A stretch of DNA of 5,529 nt from a virus (Duplodnaviria > Heunggongvirae > Uroviricota > Caudoviricetes), in IMG/VR virus record IMGVR_UViG_2585427765_000008. One strand, given 5' to 3'. Made by a program: the position numbers and the translations under genes. Under the pieces are notes generated by a model. That model ran no database searches. It had not been told where the DNA came from and saw only the letters and a list, made by a program, of their open reading frames with translations. Below, piece after piece: positions 1 through 5,529 of the stretch. Numbering within the stretch: position 1 is the first letter of the stretch; the number at the start of each line of letters is the position of its first letter.

Positions 1-48
1 ACTGATATTTTCTGCCAGCGTCGGGCGCTGAAATTCACTGTCCGCCAT
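1..48 (-). CDS. Partial CDS: first 16 codons of the next baseplate gene (position of Mu gp47 / baseplate J-like), continuing beyond the window start
   Basis: ATG at 48-46 on the minus strand translates MADSEFQRPTLAENIS and stays open to the window edge. It overlaps the 3' end of the GP46-like gene by 14 bp in another frame. Identity is inferred only from Mu-type gene order; too short to recognise by sequence. Confidence 0.35.
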   Translation of the reverse strand, partial: MADSEFQRPTLAENIS

Positions 49-463
49 GCGTTATCGCACTCCACAGATCATCAAAAGAAATCATTACCGGTCCGTCACG
101 TCGCCAGAGAGTGATACTGTTACCCAGTTCATTAATCCCGGTGCGGCGGATATCCAGATCAATACGGGACACCACACCATCATCAATCATCCATTGCAGG
201 CATTCGCGGATATACCCCCTTACCGTCTGCACCAGCTGATTGGTCAGTTTGCTGCGCTGAAGCAGCCACAGTCGGGAGCCGTAACGGTCATTCTGTACCG
301 CAGGCCAGGTATCCCCCCACCATCCCATCGGGACGTCGGCATTGTCATCAGGCTCAGCCCGCCGCCAGGTGAACAGGGAAATCACCACGGCACGGGTCAG
401 CGGATCCAGCGGTGCGCTGGCACAGGTGCGTTTACCGTTCACCGTCAGCCACAGTTCCATCAT
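35..463 (-). CDS. Phage GP46-family baseplate protein (Mu gp46-like)
   Basis: 142-aa ORF (track) with a length and motifs (LFTWRR, GWWGD) that I recall as typical of the Mu gp46 family. GGAGG at 465-469 on the minus strand lies just upstream; spacing favours the second ATG (460-458) as the start. ATG 463-461 overlaps the TGA (462-460) of the upstream open frame in an ATGA arrangement. Confidence 0.8.
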   Translation of the reverse strand: MMELWLTVNGKRTCASAPLDPLTRAVVISLFTWRRAEPDDNADVPMGWWGDTWPAVQNDRYGSRLWLLQRSKLTNQLVQTVRGYIRECLQWMIDDGVVSRIDLDIRRTGINELGNSITLWRRDGPVMISFDDLWSAITHGGQ

Positions 464-624
464 GCCTCCATCGCTTTATCAGGTTTGTCGGTGTTACTGC
501 CCTGACCGTTCTCTCTGTGACGATGCCCGTTATAGGCAAGCCGCATCGCTGACATGGTGGTGCCGCCGGAGTCGCACAGGTCTTTCACCTGTCCTGTCAC
601 TTCCAGGTCCATTTCAAAACGAGC
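460..624 (-). other. Open frame in the -1 frame relative to the spike gene; probable displaced C-terminal apex of the central spike (or an independent small ORF of up to 51 codons)
   Basis: Hand translation of the minus strand: frame open from the stop at 627-625 to TGA 462-460, reading (A)RFEMDLEVTGQVKDLCDSGGTTMSAMRLAYNGHRHRENGQGSNTDKPDKAMEA. It contains an HxH motif followed by a Gly/Ser/Thr/Pro segment, resembling spike apex regions of gpV/gp45-type proteins. No convincing Shine-Dalgarno precedes its internal ATGs (612-610, 555-553). Its stop overlaps the GP46-like start. Confidence 0.5.
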
Positions 625-1007
625 TTAGGCGCATTGCGAAACGTGATCGTTTTACCTGCACCGTCCACCACGATCCCCGCCCGGGTCAGCGTCACGGACT
701 GCCCCTGATCGTCATAGACAGCCACCTCACCCGTCTGCAGCCCTTTCAGGCGGTAACGCCGATCCGACACCGTAACAACCACCGCATGAGAACGGTCACC
801 ATCCGGAAACAACACCACCGCTTCCGCACCGCTGTTTGCCCTTGCGGTAAAACCGTAAGGTTCAAGATGTTCAACCCCGGCTTTGGGTTCACCGGCAATC
901 AGGGACACATCCACGGTCTGACATTTCGTGGCGGCACTGATGCTTTTCACCACGGCCCGACCAATCAGCCCGAGGAGTTGTCGCTGTATGGTTTCAATCG
1001 CCCTCAT
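597..1007 (-). CDS. Baseplate central spike / assembly protein (Mu gp45, P2 gpV family), apparently truncated at 136 aa by a frameshift
   Basis: 136-aa ORF (track). The N-terminal part has an OB-fold-like gpV signature (GRAVV, PYGF, GAEAVVLFPDGDRSHAVVVTV), followed by short beta-strand-like repeats. Start ATG 1007-1005 overlaps the P-like stop (TGATG). AGGAGG lies about 10 nt upstream. Mu gp45 is about 197 aa as I recall, so 136 aa looks short. Confidence 0.75.
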   Translation of the reverse strand: MRAIETIQRQLLGLIGRAVVKSISAATKCQTVDVSLIAGEPKAGVEHLEPYGFTARANSGAEAVVLFPDGDRSHAVVVTVSDRRYRLKGLQTGEVAVYDDQGQSVTLTRAGIVVDGAGKTITFRNAPKLVLKWTWK

Positions 1008-2086
1008 CAGAACGGGTCCTCCTGTACTCTGGCTTTTTTCTTTTTCCGCGCGCCGGGATCTTCGGGTTCAGGCAGATAAGCATCAGGCGGGCCGACACGG
1101 ATTTCCGTCAGGGTGCCGTTCTGGTCCTGAGTAAACGTGACTTCCGAAACAAGCAGTTCGGTATTGTCGAAACCACAGACCGGATCAAAGACAATCACCC
1201 GCTGGTTGGGCTGCCACAGCGTACCGTTACCCTGTCGCCAGCCCTGCACCACATAGGTGGTTTCATCCGTCCGCGCCGCCCGTTGTCGGGCTTCAAAGTC
1301 AGCACGCGCAATACAGCCTGCCCCCGTGGCCTGCCCTGTCTGCCTGATATACATCGGACGGTAACGGGCAATAAATGCGTCCTCTGTGCGGGCCCGCAGC
1401 GCGGTGGTGGTGGCCTCACCGAAATCATCGTCGTTTCCGGCACGCTGCCCCGCCACCTGGTAAACAGAAAACCGCTCCCGGATACTCTTCTCCGTATCGC
1501 AGGAAAGGATGTTTTCCCCGAGTACTAGCGCGGTATGTGCCCGCGTTGAGCCAATACCGCCAATCACCAGCCTGCCGTGCGGGTCGTCGTAAGCCAGTGC
1601 CTGCTGCTGACCGAGTATTTTGTTGATCACCTCAATCACCGTTTCGCCGTGATCAGGCTGGACATCAGGAATAACGCCCGACGGCGCACCGTTGTTCACC
1701 ACCTCAATGCCGAAAGGCGCAGCAAGCGCCTGCGCAATCTGTACCAGCGATCGTCCGTTAAACTGTGTCGGTTCGGCTGCACAGTCAATCAGGTCAGCGG
1801 TCAGACTACGTCCGGCAATACCGGTGCTGACCGAACGGGCATCGTAACGAACGGGAGTCGCCTCCACCCAGCCGGTGATCACCAGCTCATCACCAATCAG
1901 CACTTCCACTTTTGAACCGTTTTTAATGCGCGGCTGAAGCGTGGTGATACCCTCATCTCCCGGCCACTGGCGGGTGATCTCCACACTGAAATCCCGCGCC
2001 AGCCGTTCAATACCGGCACCGATGCGCACCGATGTCCAGCCATTCCACTCCCGGCCATTTACCCGTAGCGTGACATTGTCGTTCAT
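1007..2086 (-). CDS. Baseplate hub protein (Mu P / gp44 family; phage late control D-like tail protein)
   Basis: 359-aa ORF (track). N-terminus MNDNVTLRVNGREWNGWTSVRIG matches the recalled start pattern of the Mu P family. Start ATG 2086-2084 overlaps the N-like stop TGA 2085-2083 (ATGA). Basic C-terminal tail ARKKKKARVQEDPF. Confidence 0.85.
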   Translation of the reverse strand: MNDNVTLRVNGREWNGWTSVRIGAGIERLARDFSVEITRQWPGDEGITTLQPRIKNGSKVEVLIGDELVITGWVEATPVRYDARSVSTGIAGRSLTADLIDCAAEPTQFNGRSLVQIAQALAAPFGIEVVNNGAPSGVIPDVQPDHGETVIEVINKILGQQQALAYDDPHGRLVIGGIGSTRAHTALVLGENILSCDTEKSIRERFSVYQVAGQRAGNDDDFGEATTTALRARTEDAFIARYRPMYIRQTGQATGAGCIARADFEARQRAARTDETTYVVQGWRQGNGTLWQPNQRVIVFDPVCGFDNTELLVSEVTFTQDQNGTLTEIRVGPPDAYLPEPEDPGARKKKKARVQEDPF

Positions 2087-3411
2087 TGCACTGGCACCTT
2101 CAGAGGGATCACCGGCACAAAGCCGGGATGCGTAATGGCATTACGCCGGATAATGTCCGCGTCACGCGCCGCGTTATCAAACCAGGTCGCCGCCAGCACC
2201 AGCGCGGGTAAAACCTCATCCGGCGTGCGCTGAATGATCCGAGCAGACTGTTCAAGGCGCGTGTTGATATCCGCATTCAGATCTGCTTTCACCCGGCGCA
2301 GCGCCAGAAACAGCGCATCACTGGTTGTACGGGACAACTCCTTATCAATTGCCGTATTCAGTGTGTCGCGAATGTCAGTCAGTTCTTCCCACGTCGGCAG
2401 GTCAACCGTGTTTTTCACCGCCAGTGCATTGTTCAGTGCCGGATGCGTGACGGAAGGCCAGCCAGTGCTCTGCGCAGGTGTTGTTGCCTGCCCCATTGCG
2501 GCATTCTGCATCACCGCGGAAGTTGTTGGCGCAGGCAATCGGGTAACGGCATAGGCCGCTTCGCTGATTGCAGTCGTACGAAGGGTGCTGGCAACCACGT
2601 TACGCTGCTGCGTCGCCGTGACGGTGGTTTTACTGTCCGTTTTCCAGACGCCGCGCGGTTGCAGATCGCTGCCAAGGCTGACACCAGAAAGCGTTTTGAT
2701 CATGGTGACCAGGTCGCTGGCGTTACCATAAAGGCGTTTCCCGGTACGCCACATTTTCTGCACCTGCTCAACGAGATTTTTGCCTGACGATGGCGGCGGC
2801 AGAAGTACCGAGATATCCCCCTGCAACAGCCTGGCGGCATCCGATACGGCAGAATCCACCACTTTCATCGCATCAGAAACATACCCCAGCATTGTGCTGA
2901 CATTACCGACGACGTCGTTCTGCACAAAATCCGCCACGCCATCGATACTGAAACCACTGAAGCTGTCAATGATGCAGTCATCCAGTGCAGAACAGGATGA
3001 CATCAGCGTCTGCGCCGTCGCCGCACCTGAAGTGGGGTAAGAGAGTTCTCCCGCTTCGACAAACTTCAGGTCAAAGCGGACAATACGCCCTTCACTCTTC
3101 GATGTGCTGACCCGAACTTCCCCGTCAACACAGACTTTCAGCTCACCGTAAGTCGGATGGACAAGCGTGCCGGGACCGGGTTTATTCAGCGCGTCAATCA
3201 GGCGATCGCGCTGGTCAAAGCAGTCATCTCCCACCACATAAGCTGTGATGGACGGGCGAAAAGTGATTTTCCCCAGGTCTTCGGTATAGGGTTTGTCGCG
3301 GTTCGGGTATTCGTGCGTTTCCACACGACGACCGGTTCCCGCACTTTCTTCTTCAACCTTAAACGGCACACCGCGAAATGACGCGTCCTGAAGTCTGTCT
3401 TTCCACGTCAT
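2083..3411 (-). CDS. DNA circularization protein N-like tail/baseplate protein (Mu gp43 family)
   Basis: Long minus-strand ORF containing the ASFRGVPF motif near the N-terminus, characteristic of the DNA-circularisation N-terminal domain family. Start chosen at ATG 3411-3409 (MTWKDRLQDASFRGVPF), preceded by GGAG at 3420-3417 with 5-nt spacing. The track's upstream ATGs (3453, 3426) lack a Shine-Dalgarno and would place the hairpin inside the coding sequence. Product about 442 aa. Confidence 0.85.
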   Translation of the reverse strand: MTWKDRLQDASFRGVPFKVEEESAGTGRRVETHEYPNRDKPYTEDLGKITFRPSITAYVVGDDCFDQRDRLIDALNKPGPGTLVHPTYGELKVCVDGEVRVSTSKSEGRIVRFDLKFVEAGELSYPTSGAATAQTLMSSCSALDDCIIDSFSGFSIDGVADFVQNDVVGNVSTMLGYVSDAMKVVDSAVSDAARLLQGDISVLLPPPSSGKNLVEQVQKMWRTGKRLYGNASDLVTMIKTLSGVSLGSDLQPRGVWKTDSKTTVTATQQRNVVASTLRTTAISEAAYAVTRLPAPTTSAVMQNAAMGQATTPAQSTGWPSVTHPALNNALAVKNTVDLPTWEELTDIRDTLNTAIDKELSRTTSDALFLALRRVKADLNADINTRLEQSARIIQRTPDEVLPALVLAATWFDNAARDADIIRRNAITHPGFVPVIPLKVPVQ

Positions 3412-3426
3412 ATAAACTCCGTACAT

Positions 3427-3448
3427 AAAAAATCCCACCGGAGTGGGA
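3427..3448 (-). terminator. Candidate intrinsic terminator or attenuator hairpin between the tape measure and N-like genes
   Basis: On the minus strand: stem TCCCAC (3448-3443), loop TCCG, stem GTGGGA (3438-3433), then TTTTTT (3432-3427) and AT. A perfect 6-bp stem with 4 G:C pairs followed by a U-tract, 21 nt downstream of the tape measure stop and upstream of the favoured N-like start. Confidence 0.35.
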
Positions 3449-3471
3449 CTCATTAACAGATTAATTTTTCA

Positions 3472-4386
3472 TTACCTGCCAAAGCGCGTATAGCCAACAT
3501 CATGGCTGACATCAAAACCGCTGGATCGCGTTTCCATAACCCGCATACCCGGAGGCGAATTCACAAAAGAGACCTTGATCTCACCATCAACTTTTGGCGC
3601 AGAAGCTTTGTTAATTATGAAGGGATTCGGGCCTGTGGCATCGGAGGCGTTGTTTGACTGAGCCGGATCCACCGCCGGATAAGGTGTGTATCCCCGCGCC
3701 GGTATTCCAGTCCCATAAGCATCATAAGCACCCGCGTCCCACTGCGCAGAGTTAATGGCATCGACCGTGTCACCGGAACTGTCGGTAAACCACTCAATAA
3801 TTGGCTTCAGCTTGTCCCACATATCCTGAAACCACTTAACAACCGGTCCCCAGTTATTGATCACCATCCCCAGCGGCGACCAGGCAAAAACTTTCTTAAG
3901 GAGTTCCCAGCCAGCCTCAAAATAAGGACCAATGGTTTCCCAGAGCTTCTTGAAATAAGGTCCGACAACATCCCAGTTAGTGATAATTAATCCCGCAGCC
4001 AGGGCTATCGCCGTCGCAATCATGCCAATCGGCGTCATCGACATGATCCTGCTGACAATGCTGATGGCACTGCCAACGCCCATCAATCCCAGTTTCAGAA
4101 TCGCAAGACCGGCAGCAAGCCCGACGACGCCGCGAATAACCCGGGGATTTTCATCCGCAAACTTCGTGAATTTTTCCCCTAACTCCCCCAGCCATTGCGT
4201 GATATTTTTGGCGTCACCAGAAAATGCGCCGCCAATAGCCGCAAGGCCGTTAGTTGCGGTCCCCGTCATTGCCTCCCACAGGTTGGACAGCGTTCCAAGC
4301 TGGGCCTGAACACGTTTATTCAGGCTGGCCTGTTTATTCATCTTCTGCTGGATCTGATCGTAGCCATCCTTTCCTTTATCGATTAG
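3472..4386 (-). pseudogene. Tail tape measure protein, 3' (C-terminal) fragment; 5' part separated by the IS insertion
   Basis: The 289-aa track ORF (3472-4341) has a long hydrophobic Gly/Ala/Ile-rich segment followed by Trp-rich repeats (WDVVGPYFKKLWE, TIGPYFEAGWE, NNWGPVVKWFQDMWDK), typical of tape measure C-terminal regions, and sits immediately upstream of the N-like gene as in Mu. The frame stays open upstream of ATG 4341 through 4386 and on into IS sequence (first in-frame stop 4524-4522) with no start codon, so the gene was cut at the IS boundary. Confidence 0.8.
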
Positions 4387-4440
4387 TGAACCGCCCCGGG
4401 AATCCTGGAGACTAAACTCCCTGAGAAAGAGGTAAACAGG

Positions 4441-4767
4441 ATGACTAAAAATACTCGTTTTTCCCCCGAAGTCCGTCAGAGAGCGATTCGTATGGTTCTG
4501 GAAAGTCAGGGCGAATATGACTCACAGTGGGCGGCAATTTGTTCCATTGCCCCAAAGATTGGCTGTACACCGGAGACTCTGCGTGTCTGGGTACGCCAGC
4601 ATGAGCGGGATACCGGAGGCGGTGATGGCGGGCTCACCACCGCTGAACGTCAGCGTCTGAAAGAGCTGGAACGTGAAAATCGTGAACTGCGCCGCAGTAA
4701 CGATATCCTTCGCCAGGCTTCCGCTTATTTTGCGAAGGCGGAGTTCGACCGCCTCTGGAAAAAATGA
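4441..4767 (+). CDS. IS3-family transposase OrfA (HTH DNA-binding, leucine-zipper protein)
   Basis: 108-aa ORF (track), [30 protein letters not shown]...[36 protein letters not shown]. It matches, from memory, OrfA of IS629/IS1203 almost residue for residue. GAGG lies 8 nt upstream of the ATG. Confidence 0.9.
4759..4767 (+). other. Putative -1 programmed ribosomal frameshift site for OrfAB fusion transposase
   Basis: A6 run (4759-4764) spanning the last two Lys codons of orfA, immediately before the orfA stop TGA (4765-4767), with the orfB ATG (4764-4766) in the -1 frame. IS3-family elements make their transposase by -1 slippage on A-rich heptamers in this overlap. Confidence 0.5.
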
Positions 4768-5529
4768 TGCCACTGCTGGATAAGCTGCGTGAGCAGTACG
4801 GGGTCGGACCGCTATGCAGCGAACTGCATATTGCCCCGTCAACGTATTACCACTGTCAGCAACAGCGACATCATCCGGATAAACGCAGTGCCCGTGCGCA
4901 GCGCGATGACTGGCTGAAGAAAGAGATACAGCGCGTATACGATGAAAATCATCAGGTGTACGGTGTGCGTAAAGTCTGGCGTCAGTTGTTACGGGAAGGT
5001 ATCAGAGTGGCCAGATGCACTGTGGCACGTCTCATGGCGGTTATGGGACTTGCCGGTGTTCTCCGGGGTAAAAAGGTCCGTACGACCATCAGCCGGAAAG
5101 CCGTTGCCGCAGGCGACCGCGTAAACCGTCAGTTCGTGGCAGAACGACCTGACCAGCTGTGGGTGGCTGATTTTACTTACGTCAGCACATGGCGGGGCTT
5201 CGTCTATGTGGCGTTCATCATTGATGTGTTTGCCGGATACATCGTGGGGTGGCGGGTCTCATCGTCTATGGAAACGACATTCGTGCTGGATGCTCTGGAG
5301 CAGGCGTTATGGGCCCGTCAACCGTCCGGCACAGTCCATCACAGTGATAAAGGTTCTCAGTATGTATCGCTGGCCTACACACAGCGGCTTAAGGAAGCCG
5401 GATTACTGGCATCAACAGGAAGTACTGGTGACTCGTATGACAACGCGATGGCGGAGAGCATCAATGGCCTTTACAAAGCGGAGGTAATACACCGTAAGAG
5501 CTGGAAAAACCGGACAGAAGTGGAGCTGG
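4764..5529 (+). CDS. IS3-family transposase OrfB (DDE integrase core), 3'-truncated by the window edge
   Basis: Hand translation from ATG 4764: [37 protein letters not shown]...[31 protein letters not shown]...[10 protein letters not shown]...[16 protein letters not shown], open to 5529. It is in the -1 frame relative to orfA. Absent from the ORF track, presumably because no stop codon falls inside the window. Confidence 0.9.

What the first reader, a model, noticed from the sequence alone, without database searches (positions are those of the whole stretch)
4300..4470. IS629-like insertion sequence interrupts the tail tape measure gene
The tape measure reading frame runs without a start codon up to the IS boundary at 4386/4387 and then continues as meaningless IS-derived codons. 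The IS terminus TGAACCGCCCCGGG begins exactly at 4387. The tail operon is therefore physically interrupted, so the prophage can no longer make a functional tail from this locus. The flanking TAG (4384-4386) may be the 3-bp target duplication.
Basis: partly seen in the sequence, partly recalled or inferred. Interest (0 to 1): 0.45.

Follow-up and report, generated by a model that had tools for sequence, protein, structure and literature searches.

The report
IS629 copy capping a truncated prophage
A common E. coli jumping gene (an IS629 variant) abuts the surviving half of a prophage tail tape measure gene, and in the one closed genome with the same junction it marks a 23-kb deletion that gutted the prophage, which is ordinary IS-driven prophage decay.

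Summary
At 4387 the phage sequence stops and an IS3-family element begins with TGAACCGCCCCGGG. The visible 1143 bp are 97.2-97.8% identical to elements deposited as IS629. They carry orfA, orfB and the ALIL frameshift pseudoknot. The minus-strand ORF at 3472-4386 is exactly codons 308-611 of a 611-aa tape measure protein.

The "simple insertion with TAG duplication" reading is not supported. The window is a whole 5529-bp draft contig that ends inside the IS, so its right side cannot be seen.

Among 5426 complete E. coli genomes, only E203449 has the identical junction. There the IS is a complete 1310-bp copy flanked by TAG on the left and CAT on the right, with no duplication. Its right flank is the integrase-proximal early region of the same prophage.

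Against the intact prophage of strain LH09-a, 23,006 bp are missing. That segment holds 34 annotated genes (repressor, replication, lysis, terminase, head, sheath, tube, chaperone) plus tape measure codons 1-307.

Related prophages with genuine simple IS629-family insertions in this gene do show 3-bp duplications. This is a known element and a known process, of low interest.

The parts
3472..4386 (-). 3' remnant of the phage tail tape measure gene: codons 308-611 plus the stop of a 611-aa protein. The native start and the N-terminal 307 codons are missing.
   Evidence: This stretch is 100% identical at DNA level to the 3' part of the intact gene in LH09-a (L003 39648-41483, PGAP 'phage tail tape measure protein'). 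The intact protein matches Pfam PF10145 PhageMin_Tail at aa 88-296, which lies entirely in the missing part. The remnant has no Pfam hit. PGAP marks the E203449 copy as a pseudogene, 'missing N-terminus'.
4384..4386 (+). TAG, the last three bases of phage DNA before the IS.
   Evidence: In E203449 the three bases after the IS right end are CAT, not TAG.
4387..5529 (+). Left 1143 bp of a 1310-bp IS629 isoform (IS3 family). It is cut off by the end of the contig, not by biology.
   Evidence: It is 100% identical to E203449 L001 10388-11530. It is 97.8% and 97.2% identical to copies deposited as IS629 in phage BP-4795 and Stx2_499, and 95.8% identical to a PGAP 'IS1203 family' copy. The contig ends at 5529.
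4387..4411 (+). Left terminal inverted repeat (IRL), beginning 5'-TG.
   Evidence: In E203449 it pairs with the right end. The arms are 26 nt, 92% complementary and 1260 nt apart. The outermost pair, G/C, lies in the flanks.
4441..4767 (+). orfA (108 aa), the helix-turn-helix part of the transposase.
   Evidence: Pfam HTH_Tnp_1, E = 1.8e-12. ORF listing.
4722..4838 (+). ALIL pseudoknot, the IS3-family programmed -1 frameshift stimulator. It spans the A6 run at 4759-4764 and the orfA/orfB overlap.
   Evidence: Rfam RF01497, 120.2 bits against a gathering score of 50, full-length model match. PGAP annotates the same feature and a 'programmed frameshift' join in E203449.
4764..5529 (+). orfB (DDE transposase catalytic part), first 255 codons, truncated by the contig end.
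   Evidence: Pfam HTH_21 (E = 9.7e-19) and rve (E = 2.4e-26). Gene call.
4387..4521 (-). 45 IS-derived codons that extend the tape measure frame upstream. There is no start codon in them, and the stop lies at 4522-4524.
35..3411 (-). Retained Mu-type baseplate genes of the prophage remnant. These are the DNA circulation protein (2083-3411), the gpP/gp44-like hub (1007-2086), a gp45/gpV-like gene (460-1007, split here by a 1-bp deletion at 623/624) and gp46 (35-460).
   Evidence: Pfam DNA_circ_N, GpP-like_1st, Gp44-like_2nd and GpP_4th. Phage_Mu_Gp45 and GP46. Frameshift.

Best explanation
Window 4387-5529 is the left 1143 bp of a 1310-bp IS629 isoform: IS3 family, orfA/orfB with a -1 frameshift, copy-out-paste-in type. 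It abuts codon 308 of the tape measure gene of a prophage with a lambdoid early region, an HK97-type head and a Mu-type contractile tail, integrated next to yejO. The IS most likely marks an IS-associated deletion rather than a simple insertion. In the closed genome that shares the junction, one IS copy replaces 23,006 bp of the prophage. That segment holds the repressor, replication, lysis, terminase, head, sheath, tube and chaperone genes and tape measure codons 1-307. What remains is the integrase-proximal genes, the IS, half a tape measure gene and the baseplate and fibre genes. The remnant can make neither tails nor virions.

These points are shown by the data: the IS identity and exact terminus, the truncation point, the absence of a target duplication, and the 23-kb gap in E203449.

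These points are inferred. First, the window's strain shares the same right side, because it shares the identical junction and an identical 4.57 kb. Second, the route to the deletion. The simplest route for a copy-out-paste-in IS is two direct copies, one in the tape measure gene and one in the early region, followed by homologous recombination between them. The alternative is an aberrant transposase-dependent event, possibly helped by IEE, starting from a single copy.
For: - IS identity and ends.
- The window is the whole contig JOSO01000094.1 and ends inside the IS. A second draft contig, JNQF01000092.1, is 100% identical over 1079-5520 and also ends in the IS.
- Only E203449 of 5426 complete genomes has the left junction at 100%. 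Window 961-5529 is identical to it.
- In E203449 the IS spans L001 10388-11697 (1310 bp) with flanks TAG and CAT. The genes to its right are a frameshifted hypothetical gene, yfdR, three hypothetical genes, the integrase and then yejO.
- Both flanks are collinear, in the same order and orientation, with the intact LH09-a prophage at the same chromosomal site. Together they bracket L003 17563-40568.
- Positive controls: simple IS629-family insertions in homologous tape measure genes show 3-bp duplications and keep both gene halves. APEC 102026 has TTC and O121 WL1277 has CCG. Stx2_499 has a 4-bp duplication.
- No complete genome carries a simple insertion at either endpoint.
- A simple insertion would predict an exact 308-aa N-terminal fragment. 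It is absent from the 15-billion-protein collection, although the 289-aa C-terminal fragment from both drafts is present.
- Literature: IS629 makes 3-4 bp duplications, but these were seen at only 21 of 47 sites in O157 (PMC3271280). [quoted passage not shown]
Against: - The right side of the IS is not visible in the window or in the sister draft, so the deletion in the window's own strain is inferred from one related closed genome.
- The window's strain is not E203449. It differs by 8 SNPs and 1 indel at 101-960, and the E203449 draft has another accession. It could in principle be a pre-deletion intermediate.
- The negative 308-aa look-up is weak. One amino-acid difference or a contig break would also give a miss.
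- No intermediate genome was found, so the route to the deletion is not resolved.
Confidence: 0.8

Rival explanations
1. Simple insertion in the window's strain. The IS629 copy sits inside an otherwise complete tape measure gene with a TAG duplication, and the rest of the prophage is intact. On this view E203449 is a later derivative that lost 23 kb from the IS right end.
For: - The left junction alone fits this equally well.
- IS629-family elements do insert simply into this gene in related prophages, once only 24 bp away.
- The window's strain is distinct from E203449.
Against: - The only genome in which the right side can be read shows the deletion.
- None of 5426 complete genomes has a simple insertion at this site.
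- The 308-aa N-terminal product this model predicts (the TGA of the IS end would stop it directly after Leu308) is not in the protein collection, which does hold the C-terminal fragment from both drafts.
Confidence: 0.17
2. Alternative route for the same deletion: a one-step transposase-dependent adjacent deletion from a single IS copy. This would involve aberrant or 'sloppy' strand transfer, or IEE-assisted microhomology joining, rather than recombination between two copies.
For: - Deletions of up to more than 40 kb next to IS629 are reported in the presence of IEE and transposase (PMC9943667; bioRxiv 10.1101/2023.06.07.543989).
- Both joints show a 2-nt identity between the IS tip and the deleted DNA (TG on the left, CA on the right). 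This would suit microhomology use at one joint.
Against: - The IS is retained complete, whereas IEE-type events are described as excisions.
- Copy-out-paste-in transposition regenerates the donor and is not expected to delete flanks by itself.
- IS629-family copies occur independently in both regions in other strains, which makes a two-copy intermediate plausible.
- Two bases of identity are weak evidence. The two routes leave the same final sequence.
Confidence: 0.3
3. Assembly artefact: the phage-IS junction is a chimeric join made by a short-read assembler at a repeat.
For: The window is a short draft contig that ends in a multi-copy IS at one end and in a two-copy baseplate region at the other.
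Against: The identical junction is present in a second independent draft and in a hybrid Nanopore/Illumina closed genome.
Confidence: 0.01

Closest known systems
IS629 (isoforms IS1203 and IS3411), IS3 family, of E. coli O157:H7 and Shigella
   Same: The complete copy in E203449 is 1310 bp with TG…CA imperfect terminal repeats. It has orfA (HTH_Tnp_1) and orfB (HTH_21 + rve), an A6 slippery run and the ALIL pseudoknot. It is 97.2-97.8% identical and collinear over its full length with elements deposited as IS629.
   Different: It differs by 2-3% from the Stx-phage copies and by about 4% from a PGAP 'IS1203 family' copy. This is within the 4-5% spread of the described IS629 subtypes (PMC3271280). 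The closest copies (99.9%) are on plasmids of E. coli, Proteus and Providencia. ISfinder itself could not be queried.
IS629-associated deletions and prophage decay in E. coli O157 (Ooka 2009 and Kusumoto 2011, as cited in PMC9943667 and PMC3271280)
   Same: One complete IS, no target duplication, and flanks that are collinear with an intact reference with kilobases missing between them, inside a prophage.
   Different: The host is a commensal-type phylogroup A O8:H10 isolate, not EHEC. The presence of iee was not checked. The route to the deletion is unresolved.
Simple IS629-family insertions in the same tape measure gene family (APEC 102026, O121 WL1277)
   Same: The same target gene and the same IS orientation relative to it. 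One site is only 24 bp away.
   Different: Those copies keep both halves of the gene and have 3-bp duplications (TTC, CCG). The junction studied here has neither in E203449.

Membership tests
IS629 (IS3 family) | Element of about 1.3 kb with imperfect terminal inverted repeats ending 5'-TG…CA-3' | tested here: met
   The E203449 copy with the identical left 1143 bp is 1310 bp long. Its arms are 26 nt and 92% complementary. In the window only IRL and 1143 bp are visible, because the contig ends there.
IS629 (IS3 family) | orfA (HTH) and orfB (DDE/rve) in the 0 and -1 frames, with a programmed frameshift signal | tested here: met
   Pfam HTH_Tnp_1, HTH_21 and rve. Rfam ALIL pseudoknot at 120 bits. 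A6 run at 4759-4764 at the overlap.
IS629 (IS3 family) | Nucleotide identity in the isoform range to reference IS629. The ISfinder convention of above about 95% is recalled from memory. | tested here: met
   Identity to depositor-annotated IS629 copies is 97.8% (BP-4795) and 97.2% (Stx2_499) over 1143 bp, and 97.3-97.7% over 1310 bp. The ISfinder type sequence itself was not available.
IS629 (IS3 family) | 3-4 bp direct target duplication flanking the copy. This is a mark of a primary insertion, not of family membership. | tested here: not met
   In E203449 the flanks are TAG and CAT. This cannot be tested on the window itself. Controls with a duplication: L005 TTC, L006 CCG, L009 CTGG.
Simple IS insertion into a gene | Both halves of the target gene directly flank the IS | tested here: not met
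   In E203449 the right flank maps 23,006 bp away in the intact prophage, and no N-terminal tape measure sequence follows. Not visible in the window.
IS-associated deletion | The two flanks are collinear with an intact reference, with the intervening DNA absent and a single complete IS at the joint | tested here: met
   L001 9355-10389 matches L003 41601-40567, and L001 11696-17530 matches L003 17564-11729. Orientation and chromosomal site (yejO side) are the same.
Phage tail tape measure protein | Homology to a tape measure protein with the PF10145/TIGR01760-type core | tested here: inconclusive
   The remnant is identical to aa 308-611 of a 611-aa protein whose aa 88-296 match PF10145 (E = 1.1e-26). 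The remnant itself has no Pfam match. Membership therefore rests on the intact homologue.
Phage tail tape measure protein | Gene position between the tail tube and assembly chaperone genes and the baseplate genes | tested here: met
   The intact LH09-a order is sheath, tube, tail assembly protein, tape measure, DNA circulation protein, gpP-like, gpV-like, gp46, gp47/J.

The most novel reading that the evidence does not exclude
The central part of this prophage family's tape measure gene could be a preferred IS629 target. Four independent IS629-family copies touch the gene in four strains, all in one orientation, and two lie 24 bp apart. IS-driven loss may then repeatedly leave the integrase plus baseplate and fibre module as a retained, possibly selected, remnant. 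Alternatively, the window's strain could preserve the pre-deletion intermediate, which would give a stepwise record of the decay.
Probability: 0.1. Interest if true: 0.3.

Novelty: already known. Interest (0 to 1): 0.1.

Why it matters
The result matters mainly for annotation. The locus should be labelled a cryptic prophage remnant with an IS629 isoform at a probable deletion joint. It should not be labelled an intact prophage with one interrupted gene. It also shows that a phage-IS junction at the end of a draft contig cannot by itself tell an insertion from a deletion endpoint. A closed relative or read-pair evidence is needed. Biologically it is one more instance of IS629-associated prophage erosion, here in a commensal-type E. 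coli lineage.

Tried and rejected
- **Junction in other collections:** I searched the 30-nt junction in GTDB representative genomes, JGI metagenomes and IMG/VR. There were no matches.
- **Longer contigs by protein look-up:** I looked up the window-specific 136-aa and 289-aa products. Only the window contig and one sister draft contig exist, and both end inside the IS.
- **Evolutionary intermediates:** I looked among 5426 complete genomes for simple insertions at either endpoint. None was found. The other apparent hits to the right junction are IS copies about 200-600 bp away from it.
That draft is JAATCY000000000.
- **Exact look-up of the predicted 308-aa N-terminal fragment:** it is absent, which is weak negative evidence.
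- **Ooka 2009 (PMC2765283):** I tried to read it for the classes of IS629 deletions, but it is not held.
- **Artefact hypothesis:** rejected, because three independent assemblies share the junction.
- **TG/CA identities at the joints:** I considered them as a mechanistic signature, but they are too short to interpret.
- **Not done:** a large protein-database search to chase the right-hand contig of the draft. The chance of a decisive answer was low relative to the cost.

Full report
**Observation**

The window reads …ATCGATTAG|TGAACCGCCCCGGGAATCC…, with TAG at 4384-4386 and the TGAACC terminus at 4387.

On the minus strand an ORF ends at 3472-3474. It is open through 4386 and for 45 more codons into the next segment, up to a stop at 4522-4524. 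Its only start codon is an internal ATG at 4341.

**What lies on each side**

To the right, 4387-5529 carries several IS features:
- orfA at 4441-4767, matching Pfam HTH_Tnp_1;
- an overlapping -1 frame orfB from 4764, matching HTH_21 and rve;
- the Rfam ALIL frameshift pseudoknot at 4722-4838, at 120 bits.

This stretch is 97.8% and 97.2% identical to elements whose depositors call them IS629, in phage BP-4795 and Stx2_499. It is 95.8% identical to a copy that PGAP calls IS1203 family. Copies that are 99.9% identical sit on many plasmids.

Full-length copies in thousands of other contexts begin at exactly the base corresponding to 4387. IS1203 and IS3411 are regarded as IS629 isoforms, and IS629 subtypes differ by 4-5% (PMC3271280). 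"IS629-like" is therefore correct.

To the left, 3472-4386 is identical at DNA level to the 3' part of a 1836-nt gene in intact prophages, for example E. coli LH09-a.
- That 611-aa protein matches PF10145 PhageMin_Tail at aa 88-296.
- Its gene lies between the tail assembly chaperone gene and the Mu-type DNA circulation and baseplate genes.
- The window keeps codons 308-611. The Pfam core lies entirely in the missing half.

**The window cannot show the right side**

The window is the whole of contig JOSO01000094.1 (5529 bp) of draft assembly GCA_000713745.1. It stops 167 bp short of the IS right end.

A second draft contig, JNQF01000092.1, is 100% identical over window 1079-5520 and also ends in the IS. 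The junction does not occur in GTDB representative genomes, JGI metagenomes or IMG/VR.

**The closed relative**

Among 5426 complete E. coli genomes, only E203449 holds the junction at 100%. E203449 is a GEMS control isolate from Mali, phylogroup A, O8:H10, assembled from Nanopore and Illumina reads. Window 961-5529 is identical to it.

In E203449 the IS is a complete 1310-bp copy with 26-nt inverted repeats that are 92% complementary. Its flanks are …GATTAG on the left and CATAACAGC… on the right, so there is no target duplication.

The genes beyond the right end are a frameshifted hypothetical gene, yfdR, three small hypothetical genes, the integrase and then chromosomal yejO. These are not tape measure sequence.

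I compared this with the intact LH09-a prophage, which sits at the same chromosomal site.
- The left flank ends at L003 40569 and the right flank resumes at L003 17562.
- Order and orientation of the two flanks are preserved.
- The IS therefore replaces 23,006 bp.

The missing segment holds 34 annotated genes plus tape measure codons 1-307:
- regulation and replication: an ECs1072-family gene, the XRE repressor, replication genes, a methyltransferase, RusA and antiterminator Q;
- other accessory genes: a KAP NTPase and an HNH endonuclease;
- lysis: holin, lysozyme and a third lysis protein;
- packaging and head: both terminase subunits, portal, protease, capsid and connectors;
- tail: tail terminator, sheath, tube and tail assembly protein.

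**Controls**

The same inspection of related genomes finds duplications where the insertion is simple.
- APEC 102026 has an IS1203-type copy 24 bp away in the same gene. It has a TTC duplication, and both gene halves are present.
- O121 WL1277 has a copy at the equivalent of window 3962-3964, with a CCG duplication.
- Stx2_499 has a 4-bp duplication.
- Strain 102651 has a copy near the gene's 5' end with no duplication and unrelated DNA beyond it.

**Does the window's strain share the deletion?**

This point is inferred, not shown.

In favour:
- The junction and 4.57 kb around it are identical.
- No complete genome has a simple insertion at this site.
- A simple TAG-duplicated insertion would yield a 308-aa N-terminal product, stopped by the TGA of the IS end. 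That exact sequence is absent from a 15-billion-protein collection. The same collection holds the 289-aa C-terminal product from both drafts.

Against:
- The strain is not E203449. It differs by 8 SNPs and 1 indel at 101-960, and the E203449 draft has another accession.
- It could be a pre-deletion intermediate.
- The negative look-up is weak.

I put the shared deletion at about 0.8.

**Mechanism**

IS629 makes 3-4 bp duplications on insertion. In O157 genomes only 21 of 47 copies had them. [quoted passage not shown]

IS3-family elements move by copy-out-paste-in, which regenerates the donor site. The simplest route to an IS-retaining deletion is therefore two steps:
1. a second copy pasted in direct orientation within the same prophage;
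2. homologous recombination between the two copies.

IS629-family copies are indeed seen independently in both regions in other strains. A one-step aberrant event, dependent on transposase and possibly IEE, is the alternative. The final sequence cannot tell these routes apart, and no intermediate genome was found.

**Verdict**

This is a known element and a known process, with low interest.

Noticed in passing
window 101-960 (indel at 623/624): A 1-bp deletion (GAGCCTT to GAGCTT) splits the Mu gp45/gpV-like baseplate gene into 136-aa and 50-aa ORFs. All 8 SNPs relative to E203449 and LH09-a fall in 101-960, and there are none in 961-5529. No complete genome carries this allele (best match 99.2%). 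E203449 has two places matching this region, and the sister draft contig stops at 1079. The patch may be a collapsed or chimeric repeat in the draft, a gene-conversion tract or real further decay.
   Followed up: partly
L005 4125-5434; L006 6967-8276; L007 8621-9930 (homologues of window 3472-4386 and upstream): Four independent IS629-family copies, 95.8-96.9% identical to the window's copy, touch the tape measure gene of this prophage family in four strains. All have the same orientation relative to the gene. One lies only 24 bp from the window's site. This is suggestive of a regional preference but not statistically convincing.
   Followed up: partly
window 4387-4388 and L001 11696-11697, against L003 40568-40567 and 17564-17563: At both deletion joints the first or last two bases of the deleted DNA equal the IS tips (TG on the left, CA on the right). 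As a result, alignments to intact prophages overrun the IS boundary by 2 nt on each side. This could be chance (about 1/256 for both) or microhomology use at one joint.
   Followed up: no
window 1 and 5529 (contig ends): The window is a complete draft contig. One end lies inside a multi-copy IS and the other at the gp46/gp47 boundary of a baseplate module that occurs twice in the related closed genome. Both ends are repeat-induced assembly breaks, not biological boundaries.
   Followed up: yes
L001 1-6000 and 11698-17530; L003 10307-17564: The prophage sits next to yejO. Outside the deletion it already carries decayed genes in both the intact and the deleted versions: truncated stfP and tail fibre assembly genes, a frameshifted hypothetical gene next to yfdR, and yejO with an internal stop in LH09-a.
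   Followed up: no
L001 11598-11797 versus hits H46-H57: Several unrelated strains (MS8345, APEC E19019, O145:H28 and O157:H7 isolates) carry an IS3-family copy about 200-600 bp from the right-hand deletion endpoint in homologous prophage early regions. That region is therefore also hit repeatedly by IS elements.
   Followed up: no
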